Positions 21,478 to 43,900 of a stretch of 64,000 bases of DNA are shown piece after piece. The position numbers and the translations under genes were made by a program. The stretch lies in NCBI GenBank assembly GCA_973895155.1, contig OZ316894.1, positions 26,769,240 to 26,833,239 on the forward strand, given 5' to 3'. Each line of letters begins with the position of its first letter. Within the stretch, counting starts at the first letter, position 1. The notes beneath the pieces were generated by a model. The model ran no database searches and was not told the DNA's origin. It saw only the letters and a program-made list of their open reading frames with translations. This DNA comes from Marsupella aquatica (Eukaryota > Plantae > Marchantiophyta).

Positions 21478-24148
21478 ATGTCTGCAGACCAGATTGTGAT
21501 GGACAAGATTGTGATGTAGTGAGGATCCTCAATATACATCATTCTAGTGCTTGACTATTTTAACTTATTGAAAAATATATTAAAAACCTAAGTTATACTA
21601 TCACTCCTAAATTTATTAAATCATAGAAATATAAGATAACTATAAAGTATAGAAATATAAGATAATAAGAAATATAAAGTAACTATAAATTTGCAATGAT
21701 GGAAAATTGAAGCGCATCAAACTGTGTGCCCAAGTACAACTGTGTGCCCAAGTACAACGAGGCGCGGGCCAGAGGAGGTTGTGTGTCATGGAATGATTCT
21801 TTAAATGTAAAATAGTACTTGCTCTGCACAGCAGATCTGTGTGATGCACTGGTAGAAGAGCCTAGTCTGGTCCTTGAGGTAGTGTGTTCAAGTCGGGCAT
21901 GAAGTAATTTTCTTTTCCAATCAACTCACGGCAGAGAAAAGGTGGCAGAGTAATAAATGAGCTTAAAGGGGTTCAATCAATTCCTACATTGAAATATATG
22001 TGGAGGAGTGCCTTGTTTGGAGGTGGTGTCTTCTGATTCCTTATCTTTCTTCCCCCTAATCTTCTTCCCATCATACTCTAGGTGTGGTGCATCCCATGGC
22101 TCCCTAAACCCAAGAAACCCCCCGGCACAAGCCGATTTCCGCAGGTTTCGCTCTTGGCAAGGCTGGTTCTGCGGCTTATCGGCATGGGACGCTGCTACTA
22201 ACATTTTACACACATATACGGTCTAGATTCTATGTCTTCCCTTGTCTTCCTCTCCTGGTCTTCCTTTAGATATGTTTGGATTCCGCCGCCGGAATGATCC
22301 CCAATTGGCTTGGGTTAGCCGCTAAGACCTCTCTCAGCTCAACACATCCAACTCTTACCACCCTGCTTAAGTCCCTTCTCTCTTGGTTGATGTGGGCAAT
22401 CTTCAAACAAGTTAATGCGACACACAAATAGCAAAATGACTCCTTCTGACTGAGTTATACCATACACTTGCCATACAAACAGTACTTCTCATACACAAGA
22501 CACAAGATCTGCGAACTAAGCCGTGAGGCCAACTCTATTCAGCTCTTAGGCATGAGGAAACATGAATATACACAAGGGTCACTGTATAACTAACCAAGAG
22601 CTACTTTTACTACTTGATCCCAGCCCTGTTGGTGCACTAAAAACTTGCTAAAGAAGAAGGCCCTTAACTCCCCGCTACCCAGGTACTTATCCTGGCAGCG
22701 GATCCGCCTAATTCCTTGTAGCATAAGCCTAATCTATCCTAAGTGTAATCTACCTATGTACAGCGAGGCAGGAGCACAAGTGTTGCTCTTACCAGTGGAT
22801 CCGCAATCCCACTAATCTAAGTGTTAGGGCCGCCCCTTGGTCCTGATCCTAATTTCTAAACTTAGAGATTTGCGCCCGCCTTGCCCACTCACGCCTCCTC
22901 CCTCCACGTCCGCCCTCCTTTAAAGGAGCGGCCCTCCACCACCGTCATGGTAGTGGTGGTTGATCCTCAATGGACGCCCCCAACGCTTCCTCCGTAGCCA
23001 CTGCCGTAGGTCCATCTTCTGACAGATTACCTGCCCTAGACCAAGTCAACTCTCCCACGGCCTGACCGGGTCCACCCTCTGCTTCGGCCTCCCCTTCGGC
23101 TACGGCCTCAGATCCAGCTACGGCCTCCCCGGCCTGCTCTAGTGGTGGCTCCGCTACCCCGGTTTCATCAATGATCGTCCGGCCTCGGCCTTGCCATCCT
23201 CGCCTTCTAGGATAGTTGAATCCTCTGTTGTGACCTTGCCTGAGGCTGGTGCCGTTTTCTCCTCCTTGGTCATGGTGGCTTGAGAAGCCGTGTTGCTCCC
23301 TGACCCGAAAGGTTTTCGCTTCTTCCTCTTCCCTGGTTCGGCAGCTGGCCCCTCCCTTTGCCACTTACCTCCGGCACCGGTGCAAGTGTCGCGGCTTGTC
23401 CCTTGGCCAGTACTACCCCTGGCAACTTTGTTGCCACAAGCACTTAAATACTGCGGCTTGTTTCTTCAGCTGCTCCGTTTGGTTGTCGGCCCGCCGTTGT
23501 AAGTTCTCCATCTTCCGCGTGCTTTCCTCCAACTCCTCCTGCGTTTCGTCTAGGTCCCTGCGTGCCTCCTCTAGCTCCTTCTGGGCTTCCTCCAATTCCT
23601 TCTTTAAGGTAGCCCTCTCTTCCTGGGTTGCTCTCAGCTCCCTATCGAGCTCCGTTACGACCTCAAACTCCATCTGGTTCATCTTGGCGTAAGTTTGATC
23701 AAGCTGGTCGTCCTTCTCATGCAGGTCGGCCTTGAAGCTGGCCATCAGGGATGCAAGCTCTTGCTGCAGCACAATAATCCCTTGATAGGTGTGACGCCGC
23801 TGGTACGGCGAGTAATGAGTTATTCAGTCTAAACCGTGCTTAGCACGCGCGTTAGGGGTATCTTAAGCCGCTATGATTAGCATAACAACAGTATTTAGGT
23901 AGCCATTATGAGTAGGAAATCATTAGTCAATAAGGGGAATTCATGTTTGGGTTGGCGGCGCGTCGCCATTTGCACGCCCGGGTTACGAGCGTGGAGGGGC
24001 CCCTCCCTCCGGTCTGTATAACAAACTTTGGGAGGCATCCACTGACACGCGATGACTCAGACCGGCGGAGTGGCCGGTACACTACAAGCGTGAACGGTTC
24101 AGCCTATAGGCAACGAGGAGATGTCGGGGGAGCGACAAGCCCTCAAGG

Positions 24149-24156
24149 TATAAAAA
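24149..24156 (+). promoter_or_regulatory. Candidate TATA box of the family-B LTR
   Basis: TATAAAAA in a GC-rich context about 100 bp upstream of the ATG at 24257, followed by a pyrimidine-rich leader. Confidence 0.55.
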
Positions 24157-25376
24157 GGGAGCCGACCCTTTGTAGTGCACCAGTCCATCAGTCCGCGCGC
24201 CAGCTTCGACCCCAGCTCTCTCGTTCGCTCTTACTCGCCACTACTATCTCCTCTGAATGTCGCACACGGTCCTCTCCAGTTCGGCCAGTCGATTCTGGAC
24301 GCAGTTCCTATCTACCGGAAGACACTTGGCCGACTCGTTGAAACACGCCAACCCGCACCGATACAAAATCGAACGCGAGTACGAGAGAGCCATCCGCCTA
24401 GCAGGACGACACCGCTATATCCTTAACTTTGACTACCCATCTCAGAGCGAGCTCTACCGACCAGCAGAGGTATCTGGGTACTTCTTCAACGAAGACAAAT
24501 ATATCGGTTTTGGGGAAGCATTGCTTCGGCTCTCGGACAAGGTCTTCAATATCCCGGGTACGATCGACTTGCAACGACATCACTTCGACCACATCCCTAC
24601 TCAGGTTCAGGCTATCATCAACAACGAGTCCAGCGCTACCCGTCCGACAAGGACATCTGCACTTGCTTTGGAGAACCTCTACCAGCACCTGCAAAGCTTC
24701 ATGGGAACTAGACCCTCAACCGCCGGCGCCGGCCCAGTCGGCCCCATACCCGTACCCGCACCAATTCAGCTTCAGCCTCAACTTTAGCCTCAACTTCAGC
24801 CTCAACCTCAACCTAGCCAAACCCAACCGCCGATTGCCCCGCCAGTACAAGTACGCTCTGTCATCGACGCAGTGGATCTTAGCGACGACAACGAGGCTAC
24901 CCCACCCTTGCTCAGGCGGCCCAGAAGAGCAAACACTCAAGGGGCCGATACTACATCGTCCCCTCCCCATGCTCGGACCCAAGGAGCGGCTCCAGCAGAC
25001 AACACGGTGACCGTGGCCGCTCCCGGCCCATTACTAAAGGTGGTAGCACTACCTATGCCCGATAGAGAGGATGGGGAGGTGTCACCTTCCCCGAGCCAGT
25101 CACGGGGGAAGAAGAGGAAGGAACCCACCATTGTATCCGGGTTACCATTGGCCACGGTAGCCGTGGCCAAGGTGACAATGCACCGCATGGGGGAAAACGT
25201 GCATAAAAACATCCTCCATCCCAAGCATGCGGTGTACCTGAAGACTCAGGGATTCGAGCACCTCGCCTCTCTCCCCTGGAACACTTGCAGGTACTACGGG
25301 GAGGACATGACGGAATTCGTCAGGAATTATGATGACGCACGTCAACAAACTTGGCTGCGGGGAAGGAATATGTCCC

Positions 25377-28300
25377 TGTGGTGCGTCCCATGGCTCCCTA
25401 AACCCAAGAAACCCCCCAGCTCAAGCCGATTCCCGCAGGTTTCGTGCTCGGCGAGGCCGTTTCCGCGGCTTAGCGGCATGGGACGCTGCTAACCTTCTAC
25501 TACTACTATTAACATTTTACACACATATACTGGACAGATCCTTCATCGGGTCATGAGATACGTAGCCGGCCTAATATAGGCCTTCCCCTGTCTTCCCCTG
25601 TCTTCCCCTCCGTCTTGTTAGGTATGTTTGGATTCCGCCGCCGGAATGATCCCCAATAGGCTTGGTTAAGCCGCTAAGACCTCTCTCAGCTCGACACATC
25701 CAACTCTCACTCCCCTGCTTACTTTCCTTCCTTCTGTTGATGTGGGCACTCTTCACACAAGTTAATGCGACACACAAATAGCAAAATGACTCATTCTGAC
25801 TGAGTCATACCATGCACTTGCCATACAAACAGTACATCTCATACACAAGTTCTGCGAACTAAGCCGTGAGGCCAACTCTATTCAGCTCTTAGGCATGAGG
25901 AAACATGAATATACACAAGGGTCACTGTATGACTAACCGAGAGCTTCTCATACTACTTGATCCCAGCCCGGCTGGTGCAAACTAAAAACTTGCTAAAGAA
26001 GAGGCCCTGAGCTCCCCGCTGCCCAGGTACTTATCCTGGTAGTGGATCCGCCATTCTTTGCATCATAAGCCTAATCTACTTAACAGTAATCTACTTGCCC
26101 GAATCTACCTATGTACAGCAAGGCAGGAGCACAAGTGTTGCTCCTACCAGTGGGACCGCAATCCCACTAAGCTAAGTGTCAGGGCCGCTCCTGGTTCTGA
26201 TCCTAATCCTAAACGTGGAGATCCATGCCCGCCCTGCCCACTCACGCCTCCTCCCTCCACGTCCGCCCTCCCTAAAAGGAACGGCGCCCTTGCACCGTCA
26301 CGACACCGGTGGTGGATCCTCAATGGACGCCCCCAACACTTCCTCCTCAGCCACTGCCGTTGGCCCGCCTACTGACAGATTACCTGCCCTTGACCGAGTC
26401 AACTCTCCATCGGCCTGACTGGGTCCACCTTCGGCTTCAGCCTCGACACCGGCCTCGGCAATACCCACGGCTTCGGCCTCAGCCACTCCCACGGCTTCGG
26501 CTTCAGCCACTCCCACGGCTTCGGCTTCAGCCACTCCCACGGCTTCGGCTTCCCCTTCCCCTAGGGTAGTTGGATCCTTAGCCGTGACCCTGTCTGGGGT
26601 CGGTGCTGGGTCTACCTCCTTGATCACCACGGCCTGTGAAGTCGTATTACTCCTTGACCCTGAAGGTTTCCGCTTCTTCTTCGTTGGTGGCTCGGCAGCT
26701 GGTCCCTTCCCCTTCCCACTTACTTCCGGCACTGGTGCAGGTGGCGCGGCTTGTCCTTCGGCAATTACCACCCCTGGTAACTGGTTTGTCCCAACAGGAG
26801 ATGGACCTGCTGCAGCTAAGCATTTAAATACTGCGGCTTGTTTCTTCAGCCGCTCTGTTTGGTTGTCGGCCCGCCGCTGTAGGTTCTCCATCTTCCTCGT
26901 GATTTCCTCCAACTCCTCTTGGGTTTCATCCAGGTCCTTACGTGCCCCCTCCAGCTCGTTTTTGGCCTCCTCCTGCTCCCTGTGGGCTTCCTCCAATTCC
27001 TTCTTCAAGGTAGCCTTCTCCTCCTGGGTTGCTCTTAGCTCCTTGTCGAGCTCTGCAATGATGACAGACTCCATCTGGTTCATCTTGGCGTAAGTCTGTT
27101 CGAGCATCTCGTCCTTCTCCCTTAGGTCGGCCTTGAAGCTGGCCGTCAGGGACGCAAGCTCCTGCTGCAGCGCCATAATCCCTTGATAGGATTTCCCTAA
27201 CTCGACCTCCTTCTGCTCAAGGGCTCCGCGGATTTTCTCGAGCTCCCCTTTCAACGCCCATTCCTTTCTTTGGGTCTCCGCCATGGCCCGGCTGTTGGCT
27301 GTTATGTGGGCCTCCTCTGTATTCTTCAGCTCTTGCTTCCACTTTTCCCTTTCTTTGATCGTGTCGGCCAACTCTTCCTGCGTCTGAGTCAGTTTATCCT
27401 TGATATTCTGATTATCAGCCTGCGCGGCGTCCAACTGCCCCTGCATGATGTTCAGCTCATGTCGTTTAATCCGCAGTTCATCTTGGGCTTTCTTGGCCGC
27501 CCTTAGATCTTCAATCTCGGCTTCCATCCTCCTAAGCCGCCGAATGACCTCGTCCTTCTTGCTTCTCTCTAAAGCCACCGCTTCTTCTAATTGGTGCTTC
27601 TCCAACTGCTCCCTATGGAAAAAGGGTCCTACCTCCAACTCCTCTCCAAAGATGCCGAGCGCAAGTTCCCCACACATCTCACCATACTCCATGGCTCTAT
27701 TCTTAGCGTAGGTGGAGTAAGTAGAAGTGATCGGCATTGCCCATCGTGGCCTCTGCTCCCAAGCCGTCCTGCGGATCTCTTCAATCGTGGCTAGAGGTTT
27801 GCTTCCTTTTTCGGCTAGCCGCCTGATGTCCTCCGGCCAATCTCCTCCTGGTAAATCCTTTTCCTTAGCCAGGGCGGCCTCTTCCTCCTCCTTGATTCGC
27901 TCCTGAAATTCCTGCACCGTCTGTTTTATGCCGTCGAAGCTCGGGGGAGCAACATCTGGTGGGGGAGACTCAGGGCTACTCTGCTGGTTGGGGTCCCCTC
28001 GCACTACCCTTGGAAGTGTGGGGACAAACCGGCCACAGGTCCTTACTCCTGGAACGTGATGGTCCGACCCATAGCCGGAATTATCATGGCTGCAGTCCTC
28101 CACTGCCTCCTCTACCTCTTGGACATCCGGCTTCTCCCTCTCCTCTTCGTTGGTAGGAGCTTCAGGCAATTCTGCCTCAGATTCGGAGCTTGAGGTTCCC
28201 ACGTACATTCGAACACCTGGCTTGGATTCCGGCCTGATTCTCTCCTTGTCTCCAGCAAAGGGGTTTTCTCTTGTGAGCCGGTGTAGGCCTACCTCTGTAG

Positions 28301-30058
28301 TAGTGTCCTGCATTGTTGCCGTTGCCGTTGTTTTTGCCGATGCCGATCTCTTTTCTTTCTCCAGTAGTTTCAGCAGACTCTGCATGCCTGGTTGCTGCAT
28401 CGGCAAGTCTTCCTTCCTGGGCCTAAACACCTGCTCGATCGTAGGACTAACAGGTGGTTGAGGCTTCTCAGCCAACGGCCTCGGCGTTGGAGCTTCCTCG
28501 GGTGCCCTTACCTGCAGGGGAAGTACCGGGGCAAAAGTCTGACCTCTGGCATACCGGCACAACAGCGGCATGTGATAGCCAAGCCGCGACACGCTCCCCA
28601 TGCTGATTACCTGCTGCTCCTCCTTTAAGATCTTCTTCAATTGGTTGAGGAGGTACCCGTTGTAGTCCCGGCTTGGGTCTGGCCTTTCTGCCAGATAGAC
28701 CTGTGCCTTGCCGATCTCTGCCCTCGGCAAGTTACAATGCATGGTCACCCGCAAGAAGTCGATCATCTCTCCTATGTGCGGGTTGGTGCAGGTGTTCCGG
28801 AAGAAGCCATTCTTCGTTGATGGCCCGGGGAACGACCGGAACTCCTTGTCAGGCAAGGTCTTCCTGGTATCAACTTTGGTCTTATTGCCCATCGGCAAGC
28901 CAAACACTTCGGCAATCACCTTGGGAGTAAGATAGAAATCCTTCCCATATATCCTCGTGCAATTGGTCTCGGGTTCCCATGACCCCACGAATTCTAATAG
29001 GTCTGACTCCGGTACCTCCGGCTTCAGCCATGGTAATCTTACAAAGGCCTCCAAGCCGGATCCGGCCATGAAGCCTTGGTACTTCTTGGTCTGCATGGCC
29101 GTAAAGCATGCATCCTCCTCCCGTGCAAAATGTAGTTGCACCTCCACCGGTAGGGTTGCCGCCCAGCCCTTCCAGGTGTCATCCCTGGTTGGAATGGCCT
29201 TGATGGGATCGACCTCCTCCTCTTCGGCTTCTCCCTGCCTCCTGCTCTGCTGCTCGGCTGGCTTCTTTGGTGCCGCCGACCTCGTTCTTTTTGCCGGGGT
29301 GGCTTCATCATTGACGGCTCCCTTCCTCTATCTCTGCTGCCGTGGAGGTTTCTCCTAGCACCGTTGCCCGGGTCCACCTTTCCGTGCTACCCTTTAATTC
29401 CCAGTGTATGTCGTTGCAGTTCTTGATGGCCTCTCGGATGCCGACGACGCTGTCTTTGCAAAACAGAAGATCGTCGAGTTGATTGGAAGTAGGCGTCCAC
29501 AGGAACTCGTCCTTGATGAGTTTGCCTCCTAAGAAAGCCGTCTTCTGCAGCTCCCACAATCGAGCGAGCTCCTGCCGTTCTCGAGCTGCCCTTTCTGACT
29601 CCTCGTCCTCGTAAGTCTTGATGTACTCAGTTGCCCGTTCGAACAGGCATCCCCAGAAATGTGCCGCTTGATTGACGTTGCTCATACCCTCCTTAGGTTG
29701 ATCGTCGGTATCTACTCTCTCCCCGAGTGCTTGCCTAAGCAGCTGACAGTAGTTGGCCTCCCGTAGTCGTCTGCCTAGTTCGTGCTCGCAAATGAGCCAC
29801 CATCTCCTGCAAGCGCTCCTTACCCCTCTCCTCTGCCGGTCCTTCTTCCCGTTGATCCTTCCTAGCCGCCGACGCTTAACGCGCCCTAACCCTAATCGGT
29901 TTTTCACCCTCAGCCTTACCTCCGGCCTCTGCCCGGGTTCCATGGTTGCCCCTAATTGTTTATATTTTCCTTGTTTTGTCACTATACTAAGGTGTTCCTA
30001 GGGTGCCTTCCTGCTTTACCCACTTAACCGGCCGAGTGATTCCTGTCTAGGCATCACA
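25377..30058 (-). repeat. 3' LTR of the family-A element (4682 bp)
   Basis: Near-identical to 36280-40937, and 24 bp longer because of one extra AEAEAVGV unit. Confidence 0.96.
26298..29943 (-). pseudogene. LTR-encoded PMD-like/coiled-coil protein, 3' LTR copy, with a single 2-bp frameshift near 29330
   Basis: ORFs 29308-29982 and 26298-29147 join into the frame that is continuous in the solo LTR (GAG ATG AAG AGG there, GAG ATA GAG here). Confidence 0.88.
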
Positions 30059-33000
30059 TAGCTCCCCACTTAATTGTGAAGCGTCCTCGCGAACAACTTC
30101 ATCTTCGTCCATATAGTATTTCTTGAGGCGGTCATAATGGATGCGAACTGGATATACCTCTCCCGTAATGTTGGCCAATTGTACGGAGCCATTGGGGAAC
30201 ATCATGGTTACTCTAAAGGGTCCTAACCAGCGAGTGTAAAGCTTCCCTGGAAACCTACTATACCTACTGTCATAAAGTAACACAAGATCACCGGTATGAA
30301 TACTAACTACTTTTAACCTTTTATCATACTGCTGCTTCATGATATTCTGTCTATATTCTACTCTCTCGGCTGAAATCATTCTCGCTTCCTCTAAAGCTTC
30401 TAACCTATATTCTCGCTCCTTTAGGCTCTCCTCCGCTGAGGCTCTTTCCTCAATTGTAACTTGAAATGTCGGTATCTCAAGTTGCATGGGTACCAGGGCT
30501 TCTTGTCCAAAGGTTAAGAAGAAGGGTGTATGACCGGTAGTGGATTTATAGGCCAGATTGTAAGCAAAAACAGCAGCAAACAATTTATCATCCCAATCGA
30601 GTTTGTTCTGAGCTACTGTCTTGTTCAATATCTTTCCTATGATTCCGTTTGCTCGTTCTGTCAACCCGTTTGCCTTTGGATGGTAGGGAGTAGTAGGCCT
30701 ATGTTTAACTAAATATTGCTCATTTAAACGACTAATTATATCATTCAAAAATTGGGTTCCTCTATCACTAACTAATTCTAGGGGTGCTCCATACCTGGTG
30801 AAGATCTGCTCATACATGAATCTAGCCGTAGTAATTGCATCATCCTTCATTGTTGGTCTGGCCTCTACCCATTTAGTTGCATAATCCGTAGCCAGGATTA
30901 TGTACTTGTTCCGTCGAGGGTGGGTCAGTGGTTTCAGAGGTCCAACGTAATCAATACCCCACTTCTCGAATGGTGCCAGAGGTAGAATAGGGTGCAGTGG
31001 ATGCCTGGTGGACGCCCTTGGTCCTCCCGCTCGTTGACAAGGATCGCATTGTTTGATAAACTGATAGACATCCTTGTGCAAGGTGGGCCACCAGTAACCG
31101 GCATTTAATATTTTCTTAGACGTGGTTACTGGGGCAAAATGTCCTCCGGCCTCCTCTCCATGCATGGCCCGTAGGACTCGTTTTACCTCTCTCTTTTCCA
31201 AACACCTTTGAATCGTGCCGTTGATTCCATGCTTGTGCAGTATGCCTTTAATGCACTGATACTGTCTGACCTTCCGCACAAAGACTGCGGCTTGCTCTCG
31301 GCTTAATCCTGGCTGTAATCTGGAAGTGCTGAGAAATTGTAAAATCTCAGGGTACCATGTACCAGCTATTTCCACAACGAATAGCTCCTCGTCGGGGAAT
31401 CGATCATCGATGCAATCCGTGGCAGGTTTACCTGTGATCCTTGAAAAGAAGTCGGCATTGGCATGTAACTTTCCCGGCTTGATCCTCAGCTCATAGTCAA
31501 ACTCCTGTAATAGCAAAATCCATCTTGCTACTCTGCCTGTAAGGTCCGGCTTATTGACTAGGTACTTCAAACTTTCATGATCAGTATGAAAGATTACCTT
31601 GTACCCTAGTAAATAATGCCTAAACTTTTTACAAGAATAAATGACTCCTAATGCTTCTCTTTCCGTGGTAGAGTAGTTCCGTTCGGCATCGGCAAGCTGA
31701 CGGCTTGCGAAGTATATGGGATGGTCCCTTCCTTTCTCATCCAACTGACTTAGTACTGAGCCAATACAGAAGCCCGAGACATCTACAAAAACATGAAAAT
31801 CTTTGTTCCAGTCCGGTGCTATCATGACTGGGGCCTCTACTAACATCTGCTTCAATTCTACCACCGCTGTGACTCGTTCGGGTGTGGGTTCGAAGTCTGC
31901 TCCTGCCTTGAGCATATTGGTTAATGGTAAAGCCAGCTTGGAAAAATCCTTGATGAACCGGCGATAGTAACCAATGCATCCCAAGAAGGATCTTACATCC
32001 TTTATGTTCTTAGGTTGCATGATATCTAGCCATACTGCTAGCTTACCTTTGTCAATCTCAATGCCCTTCCTTGATACCTTGTGACCTAGTAGCACCCCCT
32101 CGGTTACTGCAAAAAAACATTTATCTGGGTGTAACTTGAGACCCACCTCCCTACATCTCATGAAGGTTTTCCTGAGGTATTTAGCATGTTTCGATGCCTT
32201 CCCGAATACTGCAAAGTCATCAATGAAGATTTCCATGAACTTTCTCAAGTAATCATGAAAAATGTTCACCATTAATCGTTGGAACATAGCTGGTGCGTTG
32301 CAGAGTCCAAACGGCATACGATTGAAGACATAGATCCCCCATTCCGTGATGAAGGCCGTCTTGATTTGGTCTTCCTGCCGAATCCTGATTTGGTTATAAC
32401 CAGAGTATCCATCCATGAATGAATATAGTTCATGACTGGCTACCATGTCTAGTACCATATCAGTAAACGGTAAAGGAAAATGGTCTTTTAATGTTGCTTC
32501 ATTCAGCTTCCTGTAATCCTGACAAACCCGGATCTTGGGTTTACCATCGGGTCCAGCTTTTTTGGGAACTATCACAATTGGAGACACCCAGTCTGAATGC
32601 AGGATTGGAGTGATGAATCCAGCTTCCACTAGTTTGTCGATTTCTGTTTTGACCAGCAGGGAATACTTCGGGTTCATCCTTCGAATTGGTTGTCGAAATG
32701 ATTTGGCTCCTAACATGAGATCAATTCGATGTTCCCCTAGTGTTGGATCTACGCCCTTTAGATCTTGGTGACTCCATGCAAACACATCCTGAAATTCAAT
32801 CAATAAGTCACTGATCTCTTTCTCGAGCTCAGGTGCTAGGTTTCTCCCTAAGTTCAGTTCTCTTCCCTCTCCTAAGTCGAGCTTCCGATATTGCCGTGCT
32901 TGGATCATATTAATCTGCTTCTTCAAATTCGGGTCCAGTTCGGCTTCCAGTCTCTCTAATCTCATACCTCCATAAACTGGGATCTCGGCTGGACTAGCCG

Positions 33001-33313
33001 AGTCGGTCCCTTCCTTGGTGTCCATAGATTGTCCCCTTACCGGTCTATTCAGTCTTGAATTAGTGGCCGGCTCCCCTTCCTGCCTTGGCTCTGGATCGTG
33101 TCTGTCCATCTCATCCACCTCTTGCTCCTGCAAGTTAGGCCGCTGTGCTCTCTCGGCTTCTAATAGGGCCTCAATTTGTTCTGCCCTCGTAATCGGCTTG
33201 TATGCCGATCCCTTGGTATTTAATTCCTTGCCGATGATCGATGGCGTTGTGGACCCCGTCGGCTCTGCCACAATGCCTGCAGAAAATCCACTGTCCCTGC
33301 TACTGCTCCCCAC
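30047..33313 (-). CDS. pol: Gypsy pol (RT, RNase H, integrase)
   Basis: WVSPIVIVPKK, CQDYRKLN, FMDGYSGYNQI, MPFGLCNAP, FIDDF, NYSTTEREAL, H...H...CDPC, WGIDYVGP, SDRGTQF, WLGPF. The stop codon lies inside the 3' LTR. Confidence 0.96.
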   Translation of the reverse strand: MGSSSRDSGFSAGIVAEPTGSTTPSIIGKELNTKGSAYKPITRAEQIEALLEAERAQRPNLQEQEVDEMDRHDPEPRQEGEPATNSRLNRPVRGQSMDTKEGTDSASPAEIPVYGGMRLERLEAELDPNLKKQINMIQARQYRKLDLGEGRELNLGRNLAPELEKEISDLLIEFQDVFAWSHQDLKGVDPTLGEHRIDLMLGAKSFRQPIRRMNPKYSLLVKTEIDKLVEAGFITPILHSDWVSPIVIVPKKAGPDGKPKIRVCQDYRKLNEATLKDHFPLPFTDMVLDMVASHELYSFMDGYSGYNQIRIRQEDQIKTAFITEWGIYVFNRMPFGLCNAPAMFQRLMVNIFHDYLRKFMEIFIDDFAVFGKASKHAKYLRKTFMRCREVGLKLHPDKCFFAVTEGVLLGHKVSRKGIEIDKGKLAVWLDIMQPKNIKDVRSFLGCIGYYRRFIKDFSKLALPLTNMLKAGADFEPTPERVTAVVELKQMLVEAPVMIAPDWNKDFHVFVDVSGFCIGSVLSQLDEKGRDHPIYFASRQLADAERNYSTTEREALGVIYSCKKFRHYLLGYKVIFHTDHESLKYLVNKPDLTGRVARWILLLQEFDYELRIKPGKLHANADFFSRITGKPATDCIDDRFPDEELFVVEIAGTWYPEILQFLSTSRLQPGLSREQAAVFVRKVRQYQCIKGILHKHGINGTIQRCLEKREVKRVLRAMHGEEAGGHFAPVTTSKKILNAGYWWPTLHKDVYQFIKQCDPCQRAGGPRASTRHPLHPILPLAPFEKWGIDYVGPLKPLTHPRRNKYIILATDYATKWVEARPTMKDDAITTARFMYEQIFTRYGAPLELVSDRGTQFLNDIISRLNEQYLVKHRPTTPYHPKANGLTERANGIIGKILNKTVAQNKLDWDDKLFAAVFAYNLAYKSTTGHTPFFLTFGQEALVPMQLEIPTFQVTIEERASAEESLKEREYRLEALEEARMISAERVEYRQNIMKQQYDKRLKVVSIHTGDLVLLYDSRYSRFPGKLYTRWLGPFRVTMMFPNGSVQLANITGEVYPVRIHYDRLKKYYMDEDEVVREDASQLSGELCDA
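30061..30070 (-). promoter_or_regulatory. Short polypurine tract
   Basis: AGTGGGGAGC, 2 nt before the 3' LTR and within the pol reading frame. Confidence 0.7.
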
Positions 33314-34911: not shown

Positions 34912-36210
34912 CTAAATAATCCGAGGATACATCTCTCCTGGATTGTTCCTTAACCCTGACCACAGAGATGCAGGTCTGTTGGATAGGTCTCGTGCTCCAG
35001 TCTCACTGATGCCGAAAACACTATCAGCGGCATCTCCCAAAAAGTACTCTACTTCTCCCTGACATGGTCTGATCTCGGCCACATGCCGAACATGATTAGT
35101 ATTAAGCTTAGGACAAGCATCTTTATGGTGTCCGGTTTTATAACATAAGGCACACCATACAGAGCTATCCTCCTGTACTACCTTCTTCTTTGGTTTTACC
35201 TCTGCAATGATAGCCTTAAGTTGCTCGGTAAGGGCTACGATGTTATCTGGTGGCTTAGCCTCCATCTTGACTTTCGTCTTCCCTCTCCTTCTGCCCTTCC
35301 TTTTCCTAGTTTTTTCTTCTTCAGAACTAGAAGATGACTCACTCTTGCTACTCCCACTATCCGAGCTTGACTTATCACTTCTAGACTTCTTGGAATGTTT
35401 CTTCTTCTTATCTTTTTTCTTATGGGGTGATCCCTCCTCTGATGAGGAACTCTCAGACTTAAGCTGTTTCTTCCGGCTTGTGATATCTGCATTAATGTAT
35501 AATTGAATATCCTTAATTGCTTCGGCTAAGGTCTCTGGGTTCTCCTTCCTAATTGCAAAACTCATCTTCTGTGGCAAAGCATTCACCAACCATTGAAGTT
35601 GCATACCTTCAGATGCATTGGTCTTTGTACGTCTTACCAGTTTCTGAAAGCGTTGCAAGAACTTCCTGAAGGATTTGTTCTCCTTGAACCGAAGTTGTCC
35701 CAACTTCAGCACTGCTAGTTCTGAAGTTCCAATGGGTCGAAACTCCTTAACAAAGAGTGTTTTGAAGATATCCCAGATGGCTTGATCTTCCACATCTAAT
35801 GCTCTGTACCAAGGCCTAGCCTCACCCTTGAACAGGCCGGGAAGAATCTGCATCTTGATGGCCGATTCTCCATTTGCTGCAGCGGTTCCCTCGAAATCAT
35901 CCAACCATTCGTCCGGATCCTCATCTCCTCTCCCATGAAATGCCTTGTAATGTATGCGCGACCGCTGGCTCAATCTGGTCCCTGGCCTCTCGTCTGGCCG
36001 TGCCTCTGGTTCCCCCATGTCGGTTGGAGACTCACTTCTCCTTACCGACTCTTCTTCTGGTATGTCTTCTTCGACGCCACTTCCAGTTTCGGAGCTACCA
36101 GCTCTTTCTGCCCCTCTCAGTCGCTGTGTATCATGCCACCCGGCGAGCTGCTGCAGTCGAGCTCTCTCCCGTTGAATCACTCTTTCTTCCCTCGGCGTAA
36201 GGTCAGTCAT
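34912..36210 (-). CDS. gag: Gypsy gag (capsid domain, Ser/Lys-rich linker, CCHC knuckle)
   Basis: FHGRGDEDPDEWLDDFE, GEARPWY, WDIFKTLFVKEF and CALCYKTGHHKDAC; the ATG is about 70 nt after the 5' LTR. Confidence 0.92.
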   Translation of the reverse strand: MTDLTPREERVIQRERARLQQLAGWHDTQRLRGAERAGSSETGSGVEEDIPEEESVRRSESPTDMGEPEARPDERPGTRLSQRSRIHYKAFHGRGDEDPDEWLDDFEGTAAANGESAIKMQILPGLFKGEARPWYRALDVEDQAIWDIFKTLFVKEFRPIGTSELAVLKLGQLRFKENKSFRKFLQRFQKLVRRTKTNASEGMQLQWLVNALPQKMSFAIRKENPETLAEAIKDIQLYINADITSRKKQLKSESSSSEEGSPHKKKDKKKKHSKKSRSDKSSSDSGSSKSESSSSSEEEKTRKRKGRRRGKTKVKMEAKPPDNIVALTEQLKAIIAEVKPKKKVVQEDSSVWCALCYKTGHHKDACPKLNTNHVRHVAEIRPCQGEVEYFLGDAADSVFGISETGARDLSNRPASLWSGLRNNPGEMYPRII

Positions 36211-36256
36211 TACCTACGCTTCCGTTCTAACTTCATATCTCACGGCTTAAGAAATG

Positions 36257-36275
36257 CCCCCTCCATCTAGCGCCA
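36257..36275 (-). promoter_or_regulatory. Primer-binding site (non-Met type)
   Basis: TGGCGCTAGATGGAGGGGG, 4 nt after the 5' LTR. A TGGCG start is typical of non-chromovirus elements. The cognate tRNA was not assigned. Confidence 0.8.
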
Positions 36276-36279
36276 AAAA

Positions 36280-39200
36280 TGTGGTGCGTCCCATGGCTCC
36301 CTAAACCCAAGAAACCCTCCAGCTCAAGCCGATTCCCGCAGGTTTCGTGCTCGGCGAGGCCGTTTCCGCGGCTTAGCGGCATGGGACGCTGCTAACCTTC
36401 TACTACTACTATTAACATTTTACACACATATACTGGACAGATCCTTCATCGGGTCATGAGATACGTAGCCGGCCTAATATAGGCCTTCCCCTGTCTTCCC
36501 CTGTCTTCCCCTCCGTCTTGTTAGGTATGTTTGGATTCCGCCGCCGGAATGATCCCCAATAGGCTTGGTTAAGCCGCTAAGACCTCTCTCAGCTCGACAC
36601 ATCCAACTCTCACTCCCCTGCTTACTTTCCTTCCTTCTGTTGATGTGGGCACTCTTCACACAAGTTAATGCGACACACAAATAGCAAAATGACTCATTCT
36701 GACTGAGTCATACCATGCACTTGCCATACAAACAGTACATCTCATACACAAGTTCTGCGAACTAAGCCGTGAGGCCAACTCTATTCAGCTCTTAGGCATG
36801 AGGAAGCATGAATATACACAAGGGTCACTGTATGACTAACCGAGAGCTTCTCGTACTACTTGATCCCAGCCCGGCTGGTGCAAACTAAAAACTTGCTAAA
36901 GAAGAGGCCCTGAGCTCCCCGCTGCCCAGGTACTTATCCTGGTAGTGGATCCGCCATTCTTTGCATCGTAAGCCTAATCTACTTAACAGTAATCTACTTG
37001 CCCGAATCTACCTATGTACAGCAAGGCAGGAGCACAAGTGTTGCTCCTACCAGTGGGACCGCAATCCCACTAAGCTAAGTGTCAGGGCCGCTCCTGGTTC
37101 TGATCCTAATCCTAAACGTGGAGATCCGTGCCCGCCCTGCCCACTCACGCCTCCTCCCTCCACGTCCGCCCTCCCTAAAAGGAACGACGCCCTTGCACCG
37201 TCACGACACCGGTGGTGGATCCTCAATGGACGCCCCCAACACTTCCTCCTCAGCCACTGCCGTTGGCCCGCCTACTGACAGATTACCTGCCCTTGACCGA
37301 GTCAACTCTCCATCGGCCTGACTGGGTCCACCTTCGGCTTCAGCCTCGACACCGGCCTCGGCAATACCCACGGCTTCGGCCTCAGCCACTCCCACGGCTT
37401 CGGCTTCAGCCACTCCCACGGCTTCGGCTTCCCCTTCCCCTAGGGTAGTTGGATCCTTAGCCGTGACCCTGTCTGGGGTCGGTGCTGGGTCTACCTCCTT
37501 GATCACCACGGCCTGTGAAGTCGTATTACTCCTTGACCCTGAAGGTTTCCGCTTCTTCTTCATTGGTGGCTCGGCAGCTGGTCCCTTCCCCTTCCCACTT
37601 ACTTCCGGCACTGGTGCAGGTGGCGCGGCTTGTCCTTCGGCAATTACCACCCCTGGTAACTGGTTTGTCCCAACAGGAGATGGACCTGCTGCAGCTAAGC
37701 ATTTAAATACTGCGGCTTGTTTCTTCAGCCGCTCTGTTTGGTTGTCGGCCCGCCGCTGTAGGTTCTCCATCTTCCTCGTGATTTCCTCCAACTCCTCTTG
37801 GGTTTCATCCAGGTCCTTACGTGCCCCCTCCAGCTCGTTTTTGGCCTCCTCCTGCTCCCTGTGGGCTTCCTCCAATTCCTTCTTCAAGGTAGCCTTCTCC
37901 TCGTGGGTTGCTCTTAGCTCCTTGTCGAGCTCTGCAATGATGACAGACTCCATCTGGTTCATCTTGGCGTAAGTCTGTTCGAGCATCTCGTCCTTCTCCC
38001 TTAGGTCGGCCTTGAAGCTGGCCGTCAGGGACGCAAGCTCCTGCTGCAGCGCCATAATCCCTTGATAGGATTTCCCTAACTCGACCTCCTTCTGCTCAAG
38101 GGCTCCGCGGATTTTCTCGAGCTCCCCTTTCAACGCCCATTCCTTTCTTTGGGTCTCCGCCATGGCCCGGCTGTTGGCTGTTATGTGGGCCTCCTCTGTA
38201 TTCTTCAGCTCTTGCTTCCACTTTTCCCTTTCTTTGATCGTGTCGGCCAACTCTTCCTGCGTCTGAGTCAGTTTATCCTTGATATTCTGATTATCAGCCT
38301 GCGCGGCGTCCAACTGCCCCTGCATGATGTTCAGCTCATGTCGTTTAATCCGCAGTTCATCTTGGGCTTTCTTGGCCGCCCTTAGATCTTCAATCTCGGC
38401 TTCCATCCTCCTAAGCCGCCGAATGACCTCGTCCTTCTTGCTTCTCTCTAAAGCCACCGCTTCTTCTAATTGGTGCTTCTCCAACTGCTCCCTATGGAAA
38501 AAGGGTCCTACCTCCAACTCCTCTCCAAAGATGCCGAGCGCAAGTTCCCCACACATCTCACCATACTCCATGGCTCTATTCTTAGCGTAGGTGGAGTAAG
38601 TAGAAGTGATCGGCATTGCCCATCGTGGCCTCTGCTCCCAAGCCGTCCTGCGGATCTCTTCAATCGTGGCTAGAGGTTTGCTTCCTTTTTCGGCTAGCCG
38701 CCTGATGTCCTCCGGCCAATCTCCTCCTGGTAAATCCTTTTCCTTAGCCAGGGCGGCCTCTTCCTCCTACTTGATTCGCTCCTGAAATTCCTGCACCGTC
38801 TGTTTTATGCCGTCGAAGCTCGGGGGAGCAACATCTGGTGGGGGAGACTCAGGGCTACTCTGCTGGTTGGGGTCCCCTCGCACTACCCTTGGAAGTGTGG
38901 GGACAAACCGGCCACAGGTCCTTACTCCTGGAACGTGATGGTCCGACCCATAGCCGGAATTATCATGGCTGCAGTCCTCCACTGCCTCCTCTACCTCTTG
39001 GACGTCCGGCTTCTCCCTCTCCTCTTCGTTGGTAGGAGCTTCAGGCAATTCTGCCTCAGATTCGGAGCTTGAGGTTCCCACGTACATTCGAACACCTGGC
39101 TTGGATTCCGGCCTGATTCTCTCCTTGTCTCCAGCAAAGGGGTTTTCTCTTGTGAGCCGGTGTAGGCCTACCTCTGTAGTAGTGTCCTGCATTGTTGCCG

Positions 39201-40937
39201 TTGCCGTTGTTTTTGCCGATGCCGATCTCTTTTCTTTCTCCAGTAGTTTCAGCAGACTCTGCATGCCTGGTTGCTGCATCGGCAAGTCTTCCTTCCTGGG
39301 CCTAAACACCTGCTCGATCGTAGGACTAACAGGTGGTTGAGGCTTCTCAGCCAACGGCCTCGGCGTTGGAGCTTCCTCGGGTGCCCTTACCTGCAGGGGA
39401 AGTACCGGGGCAAAAGTCTGACCTCTGGCATACCGGCACAACAGCGGCATGTGATAGCCAAGCCGCGACACGCTCCCCATGCCGATTACCTGCTGCTCCT
39501 CCTTTAAGATCTTCTTCAATTGGTTGAGGAGGTACCCGTTGTAGTCCCGGCTTGGGTCTGGCCTTTCTGCCAGATAGACCTGTGCCTTGCCGATCTCTGC
39601 CCTCGGCAAGTTACAATGCATGGTCACCCGCAAGAAGTCGATCATCTCTCCTATGTGCGGGTTGGTGCAGGTGTTCCGGAAGAAGCCATTCTTCGTTGAT
39701 GGCCCGGGGAACGACCGGAACTCCTTGTCAGGCAAGGTCTTCCTGGTATCAACTTTGGTCTTATTGCCCATCGGCAAGCCAAACACTTCGGCAATCACCT
39801 TGGGAGTAAGATAGAAATCCTTCCCATATATCCTCGTGCAATTGGTCTCGGGTTCCCATGACCCCACGAATTCTAATAGGTCTGACTCCGGTACCTCCGG
39901 CTTCAGCCATGGTAATCTTACAAAGGCCTCCAAGCCGGATCCGGCCATGAAGCCTTGGTACTTCTTGGTCTGCATGGCCGTAAAGCATGCATCCTCCTCC
40001 CGTGCAAAATGTAGTTGCACCTCCACCGGTAGGGTTGCCGCCCAGCCCTTCCAGGTGTCATCCCTGGTTGGAATGGCCTTGATGGGATCGACCTCCTCCT
40101 CTTCGGCTTCTCCCTGCCTCCTGCTCTGCTGCTCGGCTGGCTTCTTTGGTGCCGCCGACCTCGTTCTTTTTGCCGGGGTGGCTTCATCGTTGACGGCTCC
40201 CTTCCTCTATCTCTGCTGCCGTGGAGGTTTCTCCTAGCACCGTTGCCCGGGTCCACCTTTCCGTGCTACCCTTTAATTCCCAGTGTATGTCGTTGCAGTT
40301 CTTGATGGCCTCTCGGATGCCGACGACGCTGTCTTTGCAAAACAGAAGATCGTCGAGTTGATTGGAAGTAGGCGTCCACAGGAACTCGTCCTTGATGAGT
40401 TTGCCTCCTAAGAAAGCCGTCTTCTGCAGCTCCCACAATCGAGCGAGCTCCTGCCGTTCTCGAGCTGCCCTTTCTGACTCCTCGTCCTCGTAAGTCTTGA
40501 TGTACTCAGTTGCCCGTTCGAACAGGCATCCCCAGAAATGTGCCGCTTGATTGACGTTGCTCATACCCTCCTTAGGTTGATCGTCGGTATCTACTCTCTC
40601 CCCGAGTGCTTGCCTAAGCAGCTGACAGTAGTTGGCCTCCCGTAGTCGTCTGCCTAGTTCGTGCTCGCAAATGAGCCACCATCTCCTGCAAGCGCTCCTT
40701 ACCCCTCTCCTCTGCCGGTCCTTCTTCCCGTTGATCCTTCCTAGCCGCCGACGCTTAACGCGCCCTAACCCTAATCGGTTTTTCACCCTCAGCCTTACCT
40801 CCGGCCTCTGCCCGGGTTCCATGGTTGCCCCTAATTGTTTATATTTTCCTTGTTTTGTCACTATACTAAGGTGTTCCTAGGGTGCCTTCCTGCTTTACCC
40901 ACTTAACCGGCCGAGTGATTCCTGTCTAGGCATCACA
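36280..40937 (-). repeat. 5' LTR of the family-A element (4658 bp)
   Basis: Direct repeat of 25377-30058, followed by the PBS and gag. Confidence 0.96.
37201..40822 (-). pseudogene. LTR-encoded protein, 5' LTR copy
   Basis: Carries the same 2-bp deletion (near 40209) plus an in-frame TAG at 38767-38769. Confidence 0.88.
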
Positions 40938-43900
40938 GTCCCTCACGGAAGAACGGCTCAAGATGATCTTTCGGTTACCCGAAGGGGACCACCGAGTCGA
41001 ATCACGGGCCCCCGGGGGCAAGGGAGCCAAGTACCAATCCTCGAGCTTTCCCTCAGAGGGAGCAGTGGACAACGGGTTCGTGATGAGGACCTGCCTCATC
41101 CCCGAGATAGCCGAGCGACTAGAGTTCCAAAGGTACGCCCTCCACATGATGGAACCCCGGGGGGAGATCTTCGCCGCCCAGGTTATCCAGGTCGAGAACT
41201 ATCGACCTAGGAAGTGGGCGTCGTACTTTGTTAAGAAATTCCATGAAGAGATGGAGCGGCGAAGGAAGACGTTGTACATTGGAGGGAAGGCGTATTTCAC
41301 TGGCCACATTGAGATCATTCTTGAGTGGTACGCTCGGTTGGATCGACGAACCCTTCCCCGTGTCAACATTACAAGGCTGGTCCCAGCTAGGTGGGTTTTC
41401 CCGGCCTTGGAGAGACGGCCCCAACCCGAGGCCCGAAGTCCAGCGGACACGCAGGCTTCATCCACCCCACCCCCACAAGTAGCTGTAGTCGTGACCGAGG
41501 AGGTACCGGATGGGTCGGTTATCGCAACCGTAGATGCAATCCAACAAGTTGGGCTAAGTACAGAAGTCGGTACAGCGGAGGTCTTACTCGAGCCCGGGTC
41601 TCCCAAAGACCCACCGGTGGCTGTTTTGGAGAACCAGACTTTGCTGCAGGAGGACACTCCAGCCCCTTCCAACACGTCCCCAGGGCTGGATGTCACTGCC
41701 CCGGCCCCCGCGCGTGTTGACGTCTGCGCGTGTCCAACTCTGGACAGGCACAACCTGGACCACCCGGAACTCTTTGTACCGGATATATTTCTGAACGGGC
41801 TTCTAGGAGATTTCTCTCATCAAATTGCCCGGGATACCGGGGAGTTCATGGCCCGGAAGGTAGCCTGTTTCTTCAATCAGGAGTTGGTTGCCGCAGTAAA
41901 AGCAGGTCGGGCTCAATCAGAGGCCCTTCAGAGGATAGAGCGGTACCGAGTGGAGTCCGTATACTTAAAGAATGAAGTTGCAGCTCAAGAGGCTGAGCTT
42001 CTGCAACTACGACCCAAAGTTGCAGCCGCCGACGAGTTGTTAGCAAAGGTGCACACCCTTACCGCCCTAGCGAGCAGGCCAAAGCTGGAAACGAGGCCGA
42101 GATTTCACGGCTCCGGTCCCAGATTGACAGTTTGAAGAATCAAATTGTCATCTGGCAGAAAGACCTGGAGGAGGCCGAAGAACGGGCCCAGCGGGACACT
42201 GCGGAGATAGCCACGCTACAAGCCGAAGTAGCGCAGCTTCAAACCAAAGCCGGGAAGCAGGACCAGTTGGTGGGCAAGCTGACGAGCGATGCCCAGCAGC
42301 TGGAAGAGGCATGCTAGGAGGCAGCGGAGGAGACGGACGCGGCGAAGCGAGAGAACAAATCTCTGCTAGACCAAGTCCAGCTCCTCAAGTCGGACAACGC
42401 CAGACTTCGCAAGCAGTGGGATGACCGTTCCCACTCGGACGGCTCTGGCAAGCGTGCCAGACATTAGCGGCGGAGAGGAATAGAATAGGGTTAGGAATAG
42501 CTAAGTCAGGCTATTGGGACAGGCACCTGCCTTAGTTATAGCAGCACTGCCATGTTGTCCAGCCTGCGTAGATTAGGATCTTCTAATAAGACACAGCCGT
42601 TTTTTGGCCTGACAGTCAGCTTAGTTAGGACCTTAGTCAGCAAATCTTCGGGCGGGAGGACACTCTGTTTCTTGGCCCTCAGTATTTAGTGCACCCCTCG
42701 GTAGAAGCAAGGGGGGGTTTTTAGTCTCAGAGTTGGACATCCGTGGTATGTGCGGGGAGTCCCGACCTCTGGGAGTGAAAGAGTACCAAGGGGAGGGGGG
42801 TAGGACTAAGCTCGCCGAGCGAGTGTGGAGCCGGGCTCCGTTGTAGTGTACACCCTCGGCCTTGAACCTGTTCATTCCGGAGCTGTCGGGTCAACCAAGT
42901 GTACACTTATGTCCCCTGTGTAGTAAAATCCTTTCCCATTACTTCCTTCGTGTAAATCGAGATTGTATGCTTGTGCGTGTGTATGCGTGTATGAATCTCG
43001 TGTATAGGTGACAACGCCGGGCCGAACGCACTCCTCGAGTCGTGCACGAGGTGCAGCTTGCGAGTATGTGGTTGCGAGCACGGGTTGAGGACCTGTATCA
43101 TTGAATCCGGATCAAAGGCGGACAACACAAAGGTTTAGAAGTCCTTAGGCCGGGGTCGATCCTGCTATCGACTAAGGTACGTTCCGGCGGCGGAACACAA
43201 ACCATACCTAGGAGGTGTCTGTATCTAACAATATGCGCACTTAGCGCTAATTTACATGAATTAGGTGCATTACGTTCTTCCCTCCCTGCCCGAACCCTCA
43301 TATTTACGAAGGATGTGCCCGTTTAAAGCTGAAGCCCGAGTTAAGGCCAAGGCTGATGACATGACAATAGGATTTCCCTAACTCGGCCTCCTTCTGCTCA
43401 AGGGCTCCGCGGAGATCCTCGAGCTCCCCCTTCAGCGCCCTCTCCTTCCTCTGTGTCTCCGCCATGGCCCAATTGTTGGTTTCTCTGTGGGCCTCCTCTG
43501 CGTCCTTCAGCTCCCACTTCCATTTCTCCTTTTCCTTGACCGCGTCGGCCAACTCCCCTTGGGTCCGAGTCAGTTTATCTTTGATAATCTGATTATCAGA
43601 TTGAGCGGTATCCAATTAGCCTTGCATGATGTTGAGCTCATGCCACTTAATCCGCAGCTCATCTTGGGCTTTCTTGGCCGCTTTCAAGTCTTTTGCCTTG
43701 GCTTCCTTCTCCCTAAGCCGTCGGATGACCTCGTCTTTCTTCCTCCTCTCCAAAGCCACCGCTTCTTCCAATCGGTTTTTTTCCAACATCTCCCTCTGGA
43801 AAAAGGGTCCCTGCTCCAACTCCTCCCCAAAGATGTTGAGCGCAAGTTCCCCACACATCTTCCCGTACTCCATGGCTCTGTCTTGCGTATAGGTGGAGTG

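What the first reader, a model, noticed from the sequence alone, without database searches (positions are those of the whole stretch)
23790..43366. A second, divergent giant LTR family encodes a homologous protein
Seen: removing the nested element restores a 4.0-kb TSD-bounded TG...CA unit with a TATA box and a frame of about 880 codons. Its central domain (GFEHLASLPW...EFV...TWLRG..MSLT....MIFRLPEG...FP...NGF..RTC..PEIAE.LEF.R.ALH...PRGEIFAAQV) aligns motif by motif with family A (GLEAFVRLPW...EFV...TRIYG..FYLT....EVFGLPMG...FP...NGF..NTC..PHIGE.IDF.R.TMH...PRAEIGKAQV). Both proteins have a basic KRK patch before the domain and a coiled coil after it. No DNA similarity is obvious except the TGTGAYGCC end. 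Inference: the gene-in-LTR layout is an old, selected, lineage-wide trait rather than a one-off capture.
Basis: partly seen in the sequence, partly recalled or inferred. Interest (0 to 1): 0.85.

Follow-up and report, generated by a model that had tools for sequence, protein, structure and literature searches.

The report
Giant LTRs carrying VANC-fold protein gene
Two very divergent plant retrotransposon families carry the same kind of extra gene inside their terminal repeats, and its protein is predicted to fold like the DNA-binding anti-silencing factor VANC21, so even leftover solo repeats could likely make a factor that protects the family from silencing.

Summary
Observation confirmed. 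B (23790-25376 + 40938-43366, 4,011 bp without the nested element) has TG...CA ends, an ATAGG target duplication, a TATA box and a broken frame of about 881 codons. Its central domain is 26.5% identical to family A's over 185 aa (E 5e-16; 0 of 2,000 shuffles). New: (1) the model of the A domain matches one solved fold, VANC21 (Z 8.7, next 2.2 of 48,161 chains; Foldseek E only 0.83), pointing to the PMD/VANC/Athila-ORF group; (2) a weaker N-terminal domain is shared too; (3) a 14-bp non-coding motif is identical in A and B tails, so DNA similarity is not confined to the end; (4) the A domain has dN/dS 0.11-0.13. A's repeats are proven LTRs. B is a multi-copy family in public contigs of four species labels, with the same right end. 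No full-length B element was found, so its LTR status rests on homology. 'Lineage-wide' is unproven: liverwort homologues exist, but their position is untested. Such ORFs are known between the LTRs of Ogre/Athila elements; the position inside the LTR, in a probable bryophyte, is the new part. Anti-silencing is inferred. No earlier scan note covers this.

The parts
23785..23789 (.). left target-site duplication of B (ATAGG)
23790..25376 (+). B unit, 5' part (starts TGTGACGCC); probable solo LTR
24149..24155 (+). TATA box of B, followed by GGG..CCCTTTGTA and a CT-rich tract; 108 bp before the ATG (promoter role inferred)
24257..25375 (+). B LTR ORF, first part: N-terminal domain (about 24281-24590), stop at 24785, low-complexity linker, KKRK patch, first third of the VANC-like domain (about 25160-25375)
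25377..40937 (-). nested full-length family A Ty3/Gypsy element, GTCCC duplication
25377..30058 (-). A 3' LTR with the LTR ORF (29308-29997 and 26298-29327, out of frame with each other in this copy)
30059..30071 (-). polypurine tract of A, directly before the 3' LTR; the pol stop lies in the first bases of the LTR
30047..36213 (-). gag, zinc knuckle, protease-like motif (read by eye), RT, RNase H, integrase of A; Pfam lists no chromodomain and no second RNase H region
36260..36275 (-). primer-binding-site-like TGGCGCTAGATGGAGG, 4 bases after the A 5' LTR
36280..40937 (-). A 5' LTR; 12 substitutions against the 3' LTR in 4,658 aligned bases
40943..42467 (+). B LTR ORF, second part: rest of the VANC-like domain (about 40945-41350), linker, coiled coil (about 41920-42440; frameshift near 42070, stop near 42318), basic C-terminus
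42468..43366 (+). B non-coding tail (899 bp), TGTA-rich, ends CATGACA
43182..43210 (+). non-coding motif shared by A and B tails (core TTCCGGCGGCGGAA, 43182-43195)
43367..43371 (.). right target-site duplication of B (ATAGG)
22083..45697 (-). older A-subfamily LTR (A3) that received B; pieces 22083-23789 and 43367-45697
45698..54318 (+). A-subfamily LTR (A2), interrupted by a solo A LTR and truncated at its 3' end
48160..52819 (+). solo A LTR (TGGCG duplication); ORF probably 48533-51898 with one internal stop; TATAAA near 48255

Best explanation
B is most likely the solo LTR of a second, anciently diverged Ty3/Gypsy family whose LTR, like family A's, holds an accessory gene for a protein predicted to have the VANC/PMD DNA-binding fold, likely acting in the nucleus to keep the family's copies from being silenced. 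Shown: the layout in both families (370-470 bp leader with a TATA box, ORF, about 900 bp tail with a shared motif); LTR status and gag-pol-sense ORF for A; protein homology; purifying selection in A; no transmembrane segment. Predicted: the VANC21-like fold (modelled for A's domain, extended to B by homology) and a C-terminal coiled coil. Inferred: the LTR promoter drives the ORF as the first cistron, in the place that Ogre's 5' PMD-coiled-coil ORF holds but upstream of the PBS, so it is copied into both LTRs at each transposition. Every solo LTR left by recombination would then keep promoter, gene and 3' signals and could supply the protein in trans. The protein would oligomerise by the coiled coil, bind short motifs in its own family's non-coding DNA and locally counter silencing, as VANC does for VANDAL.
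For: Structure and TSDs. Homology E 5e-16, 0 of 2,000 shuffles. Second shared N-terminal domain: a profile of B, P0017 and P0028 scores A at 14.6 bits against a maximum of 6.2 in 1,000 shuffles. Shared tail motif. dN/dS 0.13 (0.07-0.23) and 0.11 (0.06-0.18) in the domain, 0.17-0.26 in the coiled coil, 1.26 (0.67-3.14) before the likely start. Model pLDDT 77, pTM 0.77. VIA: VANC21 9LNK Z 8.7, 197 of 217 residues aligned, next Z 2.2. Foldseek top hit VANC21 9LNJ, TMq 0.54. Atlas leads PF20167 and PF03078. VANC is structurally homologous to MAIN, and VANC and the Athila domain are predicted to oligomerise by coiled coils (PMC13547354). VANC21 binds a 9-base motif and causes demethylation (PMC5735166). 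Other B copies end at the same base with mixed flanks.
Against: No full-length B element and no PBS after B's end were seen. The Foldseek E-value is 0.83, rmsd is 4-6 A at 9-12% identity, and the tool warns that Z near 8 can be a common arrangement. Atlas scores are under 0.9, leads only. Pfam finds no PMD, Transposase_32 or ATHILA match in the LTR-ORF queries or in 18 of 18 homologues. The same fold serves silencing in MAIN/MAIL1 (PMC5418596), so fold does not give the direction of the effect. No VANC-type motif arrays lie in the non-coding LTR parts. CpG is depleted in all A units (obs/exp 0.53-0.69; B 0.81-0.92), so A copies were not kept free of methylation over time. No expression data. 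Pairwise A-B similarity of the N-domain alone is marginal (54 of 2,000 shuffles).
Confidence: 0.5

Rival explanations
1. Same anatomy and fold, but the protein steers integration: it binds family DNA or heterochromatin and tethers the integration complex, replacing a chromodomain.
For: Pfam lists no chromodomain in A's pol. All four nested insertions in 22083-54318 (B into A3, A into B, A2 at the end of A3, solo A into A2) are in these LTRs.
Against: One window only. Nesting is common for large plant retrotransposons (general knowledge). No interaction with integrase was tested.
Confidence: 0.2
2. The ORF lies in U3 with its own promoter (or is read from a spliced RNA), and the genomic RNA starts in the tail near the shared motif; the gene entered the LTR when the PPT came to lie upstream of a former pol-3'LTR ORF, the place of Athila's ORF. 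Function as above or another nuclear role.
For: A's pol ends at the 3' LTR with no spacer. A 4-kb R/U5 would need a very long strong-stop DNA and read-through of the ORF's 3' signals. Atlas leads point to Athila-type ORFs.
Against: The only TATA[AT]A[AT] match in B lies upstream of the ORF, and its context resembles the usual LTR core promoter (recalled, not tested).
Confidence: 0.15
3. B is not the LTR of an autonomous family but a non-autonomous or self-contained unit, moved by A-type enzymes or left from an extinct partner.
For: No B-linked gag-pol or PBS was seen.
Against: TG...CA ends, 5-bp duplication, no internal terminal repeats, same layout and tail motif as proven A LTRs. The search was weak: short contigs, consensus of mixed flanks, 40 loose-end rows not shown.
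Confidence: 0.08
4. The ORF is an env-like membrane protein.
For: Sense orientation and a coiled coil, as in plant env-like ORFs (PMC7264820).
Against: The best 19-residue hydropathy window is 1.36 or less in A and B. Basic patches and the VANC-like fold point to the nucleus.
Confidence: 0.03
5. The gene is a neutral captured relic.
For: Every copy in the window has at least one break.
Against: dN/dS far below 1 between subfamilies at dS 0.3-0.7. Contigs of all four runs differ from this B copy by an indel at its frameshift site, so that break is not family-wide.
Confidence: 0.04

Closest known systems
Ogre/Tat eORFs with plant mobile domain plus coiled coil (Ustyantsev et al. 2015, PMC4408406; Neumann et al. 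2019, PMC6317226; passages read)
   Same: Ty3/Gypsy accessory ORF with a PMD-group fold (predicted here) and a coiled coil; in Tat lineage IV it is sense and 5' of gag; LTRs up to about 5 kb occur in non-chromoviruses.
   Different: Here the ORF is inside the LTR (upstream of the PBS, downstream of the PPT), so it is present twice and in solo LTRs. No Pfam PMD match. No second RNase H. PMC4408406 reports no eORFs in moss Tat-like elements, and PMC6317226 calls Phygy/Selgy short.
Athila ORF-1 (PF03078) / Transposase_32 (PF20167) ORFs
   Same: Nearest named clusters by language-model features for two family members (0.87-0.89); sense ORF; coiled coil.
   Different: No HMM match. Sense eORFs of Athila-type elements are described between pol and the 3' LTR (PMC7264820).
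VANC21 anti-silencing protein of VANDAL21 (PDB 9LNJ/9LNK; Hosaka et al. 2017, PMC5735166)
   Same: Only clear structural match (Z 8.7); transposon-encoded; coiled coil plus globular domain.
   Different: VANC is on a MuDR DNA transposon and is called dicot-specific (PMC13547354). Identity is 9-12%. No tandem target arrays were found here. DNA binding and demethylation are untested.
MAIN/MAIL1 PMD proteins (Ikeda et al. 2017, PMC5418596)
   Same: Same fold group through VANC (PMC13547354); a Gypsy-borne PMD is one proposed source.
   Different: Host genes that silence; that survey describes angiosperms.
Retroviral genes in the LTR (MMTV sag, HIV nef overlapping U3; recalled, no call)
   Same: Accessory gene inside the terminal repeat.
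   Different: Unrelated proteins, far shorter LTRs, animal viruses.

Membership tests
Solo LTR of a Ty3/Gypsy element (unit B) | TG...CA ends and 4-6 bp target duplication | tested here: met
Solo LTR of a Ty3/Gypsy element (unit B) | same terminus reused by other copies with other flanks | tested here: met
   right end only: loose ends begin at 43366 in X1 (4 contigs, agreement 0.57) and X4 (6 contigs, 0.53); left end not tested
Solo LTR of a Ty3/Gypsy element (unit B) | occurs as a direct repeat around gag-pol with PBS and PPT | tested here: inconclusive
   no PBS in the mixed loose-end consensus; no loci from viral or metagenome contigs; no genome held
Solo LTR of a Ty3/Gypsy element (unit B) | homology to a proven LTR | tested here: met
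   ORF, tail motif and layout shared with A
Ty3/Gypsy LTR retrotransposon (family A) | two LTRs, PBS, PPT, TSD, order gag-PR-RT-RH-INT | tested here: met
   (protease read by eye)
OTA non-chromovirus clade (Athila/Tat) | RT/RH/INT tree position | not tested
   no reference set obtained (one search found none); the PBS form and missing chromodomain only suggest it
Tat clade | additional archaeal-type RNase H | tested here: not met
   Pfam shows one RNase H region in A's pol
PMD (PF10536) / Transposase_32 (PF20167) / ATHILA (PF03078) | match to the family HMM | tested here: not met
   no hit at E 0.1 for the LTR-ORF pieces, none at E 1 for 18 of 18 homologues
PMD/VANC/Athila-ORF fold group | structural match to the VANC21 domain | tested here: met
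   A-domain model: Z 8.7, rmsd 4.0, 197 aligned, next 2.2; Foldseek weak, E 0.83; B itself not modelled
VANC anti-silencing system | encoded by a VANDAL/MuDR DNA transposon | tested here: not met
   encoded in retrotransposon LTRs
VANC anti-silencing system | short target motifs in tandem arrays in non-coding parts | tested here: inconclusive
   TRF finds only short low-score repeats in the tails; TTAG is about twofold enriched in both families, weak after multiple testing
VANC anti-silencing system | sequence-specific DNA binding and demethylation in trans | not testable with these tools
   needs binding assays and methylomes
env-like ORF | transmembrane segment | tested here: not met
   best hydropathy window 1.36 or less

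The most novel reading that the evidence does not exclude
Bryophyte Ty3/Gypsy elements carry a VANC-type anti-silencing gene inside the LTR, so that solo-LTR formation, the host's main way of deleting retrotransposons, leaves behind working anti-silencing genes; this retrotransposon-borne domain predates angiosperms and is a candidate source of both PMD silencing proteins and VANC.
Probability: 0.25. Interest if true: 0.88.

Novelty: new variant of a known kind. Interest (0 to 1): 0.64.

Why it matters
The role of plant retrotransposon accessory ORFs is an open question (PMC7264820, PMC4408406). A structural link to VANC21, a protein with known DNA targets and a crystal structure, makes it testable: find the motif, then measure methylation. 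A selected gene inside the LTR turns solo LTRs from debris into potential trans-acting genes. The domain's presence in two divergent families here and in liverwort gene models moves the PMD/VANC fold on mobile elements well before angiosperms. That bears on the proposal that VANC arose by capture of host MAIN-like genes (PMC13547354) and on the report that moss Tat-like elements lack eORFs (PMC4408406).

Tried and rejected
No genome is held for the window. Word-indexed protein searches gave none with the A domain, none with alignment A1 among long proteins, and only an input sequence with A2. Contig scans found no loci: viral contigs with the A domain, the B domain piece, A's RT and the tail motif; metagenome contigs with the B piece and P0028. 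PDB by sequence: 0 and 2 chance rows. Viral fold library: top row an unnamed protein, E 5.5e-3, TMq 0.33, rmsd 19.8, not followed. The N-domain model was too poor to search (pLDDT 45). The second VIA look never ran. No RNA holder was listed, which says nothing on expression. The tail motif does not fold better than shuffles (z -0.9 to 0.5), so an RNA hairpin role is unsupported. In one search the pairwise A_N rows used a wrong frame and were redone; the profile search there used six frames and stands. Three of 21 phmmer hits (P0005, P0018, P0020) were dropped as repeat-protein artefacts. A's first in-frame ATG (48275) was rejected as the start because the next 90 codons show dN/dS 1.26 and the N-domain alignment starts at the later Met. 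Earlier scan notes: none near, none by sequence, two unrelated by words. Two papers were not held: Sasaki 2022 and Tanaka 2026, the VANC21 structure.
Full report
1. Anatomy. Half of the window (22083-54318) is one nest of large repeats. A full-length family A element (25377-40937, minus strand) has two LTRs of 4.66-4.68 kb that differ by 12 substitutions in 4,658 aligned bases. It has a GTCCC duplication, a PBS-like TGGCGCTAGATGGAGG four bases after the 5' repeat, a purine tract directly before the 3' repeat, and gag, zinc knuckle, RT, RNase H and integrase between them. A's repeats are therefore true LTRs; a solo copy with its own TGGCG duplication lies at 48160-52819. This element sits inside unit B, which begins TGTGACGCC at 23790, ends CATGACA at 43366 and is flanked by ATAGG; the A LTRs show the empty site. 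B is 4,011 bp and has no internal terminal repeats. The neighbours are PPR-DYW genes and Copia elements. I infer a bryophyte host from the PPR repeat type (recalled) and from liverwort homologues; this was not tested directly.

2. The B frame. It runs from ATG 24257 to 42467, about 881 codon positions, with two stops, one frameshift and the nested insertion. Read with X at the breaks, it aligns to A's LTR protein at 26.5% over 185 aa (E 5e-16); 0 of 2,000 shuffles reach the domain score.

3. (a) An N-terminal domain of about 100 aa: B matches the Calypogeia protein P0017 (0 of 2,000 shuffles). A profile of B, P0017 and P0028 ranks A's N-terminal frames first among unrelated targets of 833 (E 0.0012; 14.6 bits against at most 6.2 in 1,000 shuffles). 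The direct A-B pair is marginal (54 of 2,000). (b) TTCCGGCGGCGGAA stands in the non-coding tail of B and of the four A-type LTRs that keep their tail, 184 and 269 bp from the end in B and the solo A; chance gives 0.00. (c) The layout matches: leader 373 bp (A) and 467 bp (B) with a TATA-like box, then the ORF, then a tail of 921 and 899 bp. These make B a homologue of a proven LTR.

4. Selection. Between three A subfamilies in the window (dS 0.3-0.7), dN/dS is 0.13 and 0.11 in the central domain, 0.21 in the N-domain, 0.17-0.26 in the coiled coil and 1.26 in the 90 codons before the likely start (Nei-Gojobori with bootstrap). The gene was under protein-level constraint while the subfamilies diverged. 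B could not be tested this way.

5. B elsewhere. Six of 7 listed runs hold B words, under four species labels and four studies. Laid at 80% likeness, 6,114, 9,285, 275 and 42 contigs fall on B's right part plus 334 bases of A flank, covering 30, 30, 30 and 26 of 30 bins. Contigs of all four runs differ from this copy by an indel at its frameshift site, so that break is not family-wide. In X1 and X4, contigs leave the sequence at exactly 43366 with mixed flanks (4 and 6 contigs), as expected for a real terminus. No PBS could be read from the mixed consensus, and 40 rows were not shown. A full-length B element remains unseen; contig scans gave no loci.

6. What the domain is. Pfam gives nothing for the LTR-ORF pieces except a sub-threshold coiled-coil hit. 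phmmer over 1.84 billion representatives gave 21 hits; I kept 18, and none matches a Pfam family at its cut-off. Three of 10 looked up are Calypogeia fissa gene models. An AlphaFold2 model of A's domain on a 23-row alignment has pLDDT 77 and pTM 0.77. Among 48,161 representative chains only VANC21 scores Z 5 or more (9LNK, Z 8.7, rmsd 4.0, 197 residues, 9% identity; next 2.2). Foldseek also ranks VANC21 first but weakly (E 0.83, probability 0.63, TMq 0.54). Language-model features of A's domain and of a B-like homologue point to Transposase_32 and ATHILA ORF-1 clusters at 0.87-0.89, lead level only. A published structural survey links VANC to the PMD protein MAIN and predicts coiled-coil oligomers for VANC and the Athila domain (PMC13547354; passages and section 10; preprint passages). 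I judge the fold assignment about 80% likely. There is no transmembrane segment, so 'env-like' does not fit.

7. How it likely works. Shown: gene inside A's LTR, sense to gag-pol, selected, homologous in B. Predicted: VANC/PMD fold and coiled coil. Inferred: the LTR promoter upstream of the ORF expresses it from any LTR, solo ones included; the protein binds its family's DNA and counters silencing as VANC21 does through a 9-base motif (PMC5735166, passages). Against this: no motif arrays were found; A units are CpG-depleted; the same fold silences in MAIN/MAIL1 (PMC5418596, passages); there are no RNA data. Integration targeting is the main rival, suggested by the four nested insertions. Whether the ORF lies in R/U5 or U3 is open.

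8. Comparison with what is known. PMD, Transposase_28 and Athila ORF-1 eORFs are common in Ogre, Retand and Athila, which also have LTRs up to about 5 kb (PMC6317226, passages). PMD-coiled-coil eORFs occur 5' sense or 3' antisense, and moss Tat-like elements were reported to have none (PMC4408406, passages). A review places aORFs in the internal region (PMC7264820, first of three parts). So the protein type works like a known kind, but it fails the Pfam membership tests and the VANC context test. I found no report of such an ORF inside a plant LTR in searches (listings only), nor of a VANC fold in a retrotransposon ORF in searches. Steinbauerova 2011 was not looked up; Sasaki 2022 and Tanaka 2026 were not held; the supplements of PMC6317226, which list eORF positions, were not read and may bear on novelty. 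PMC11728184 and PMC12844716 were seen as passages only.

9. Verdict. A real feature and a new variant of a known kind: a PMD/VANC-fold accessory gene placed inside giant LTRs of two divergent families. B's LTR status is very likely but indirect, 'lineage-wide' is open, and anti-silencing is a testable inference. Interest 0.64.

Noticed in passing
window 29308-29997 and 40184-40876 against 48221-50758: Both LTRs of the full-length A element share a frameshift between the N-domain and the rest of the LTR ORF, while the solo copy is in frame there; the element apparently transposed with a broken accessory gene, which fits supply in trans.
   Followed up: partly
window 30047-36213: In A the protease-like motif is in the gag frame (gag interrupted by one stop) and RT-RH-INT starts in an overlapping frame; PMC4408406 describes Gag-PR fusion as a trait of flowering-plant Tat lineages. 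One copy only, so a mutation is not excluded.
   Followed up: no
window 30047-30058: A's pol stop codon lies within the first bases of the 3' LTR; the PPT is inside the integrase coding end.
   Followed up: no
window 3-2237 (+) and 16131-18713 (-): Two PPR-E-DYW RNA-editing factor genes, 86% alike, in inverted orientation, with 303-bp internal repeat units.
   Followed up: no
window about 6296-13033: Ty1/Copia element with 344-bp LTRs 98.8% alike (6296-6639, 12690-13033); gag and pol separated by a single stop.
   Followed up: no
window 61189-64000: A second Copia pol frame running off the window.
   Followed up: no
window 57035-60014: Two ORFs (223 and 331 aa) without Pfam match that read like pieces of a CACTA-type transposon (recalled resemblance).
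   Followed up: no
window 45698 and 54318: A3 lacks its first 600 or so bases at the A2 boundary and A2 lacks its 3' end, so the nest was rearranged after insertion.
   Followed up: partly
non-coding heads and tails of A and B: TTAG/CTAA occurs 24 times in each family against about 12 in shuffles, with TTAGGGTT-like telobox words; a candidate binding motif, statistically weak.
   Followed up: partly
proteins P0014, P0017, P0021: Three Calypogeia fissa 'unnamed' gene models carry the domain and are probably transposon-derived; P0017 also has the N-domain.
   Followed up: partly
B right part, table 3: Most well-supported differences of this copy from other copies are transitions towards T or A, as expected from decay of methylated cytosines.
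   Followed up: no
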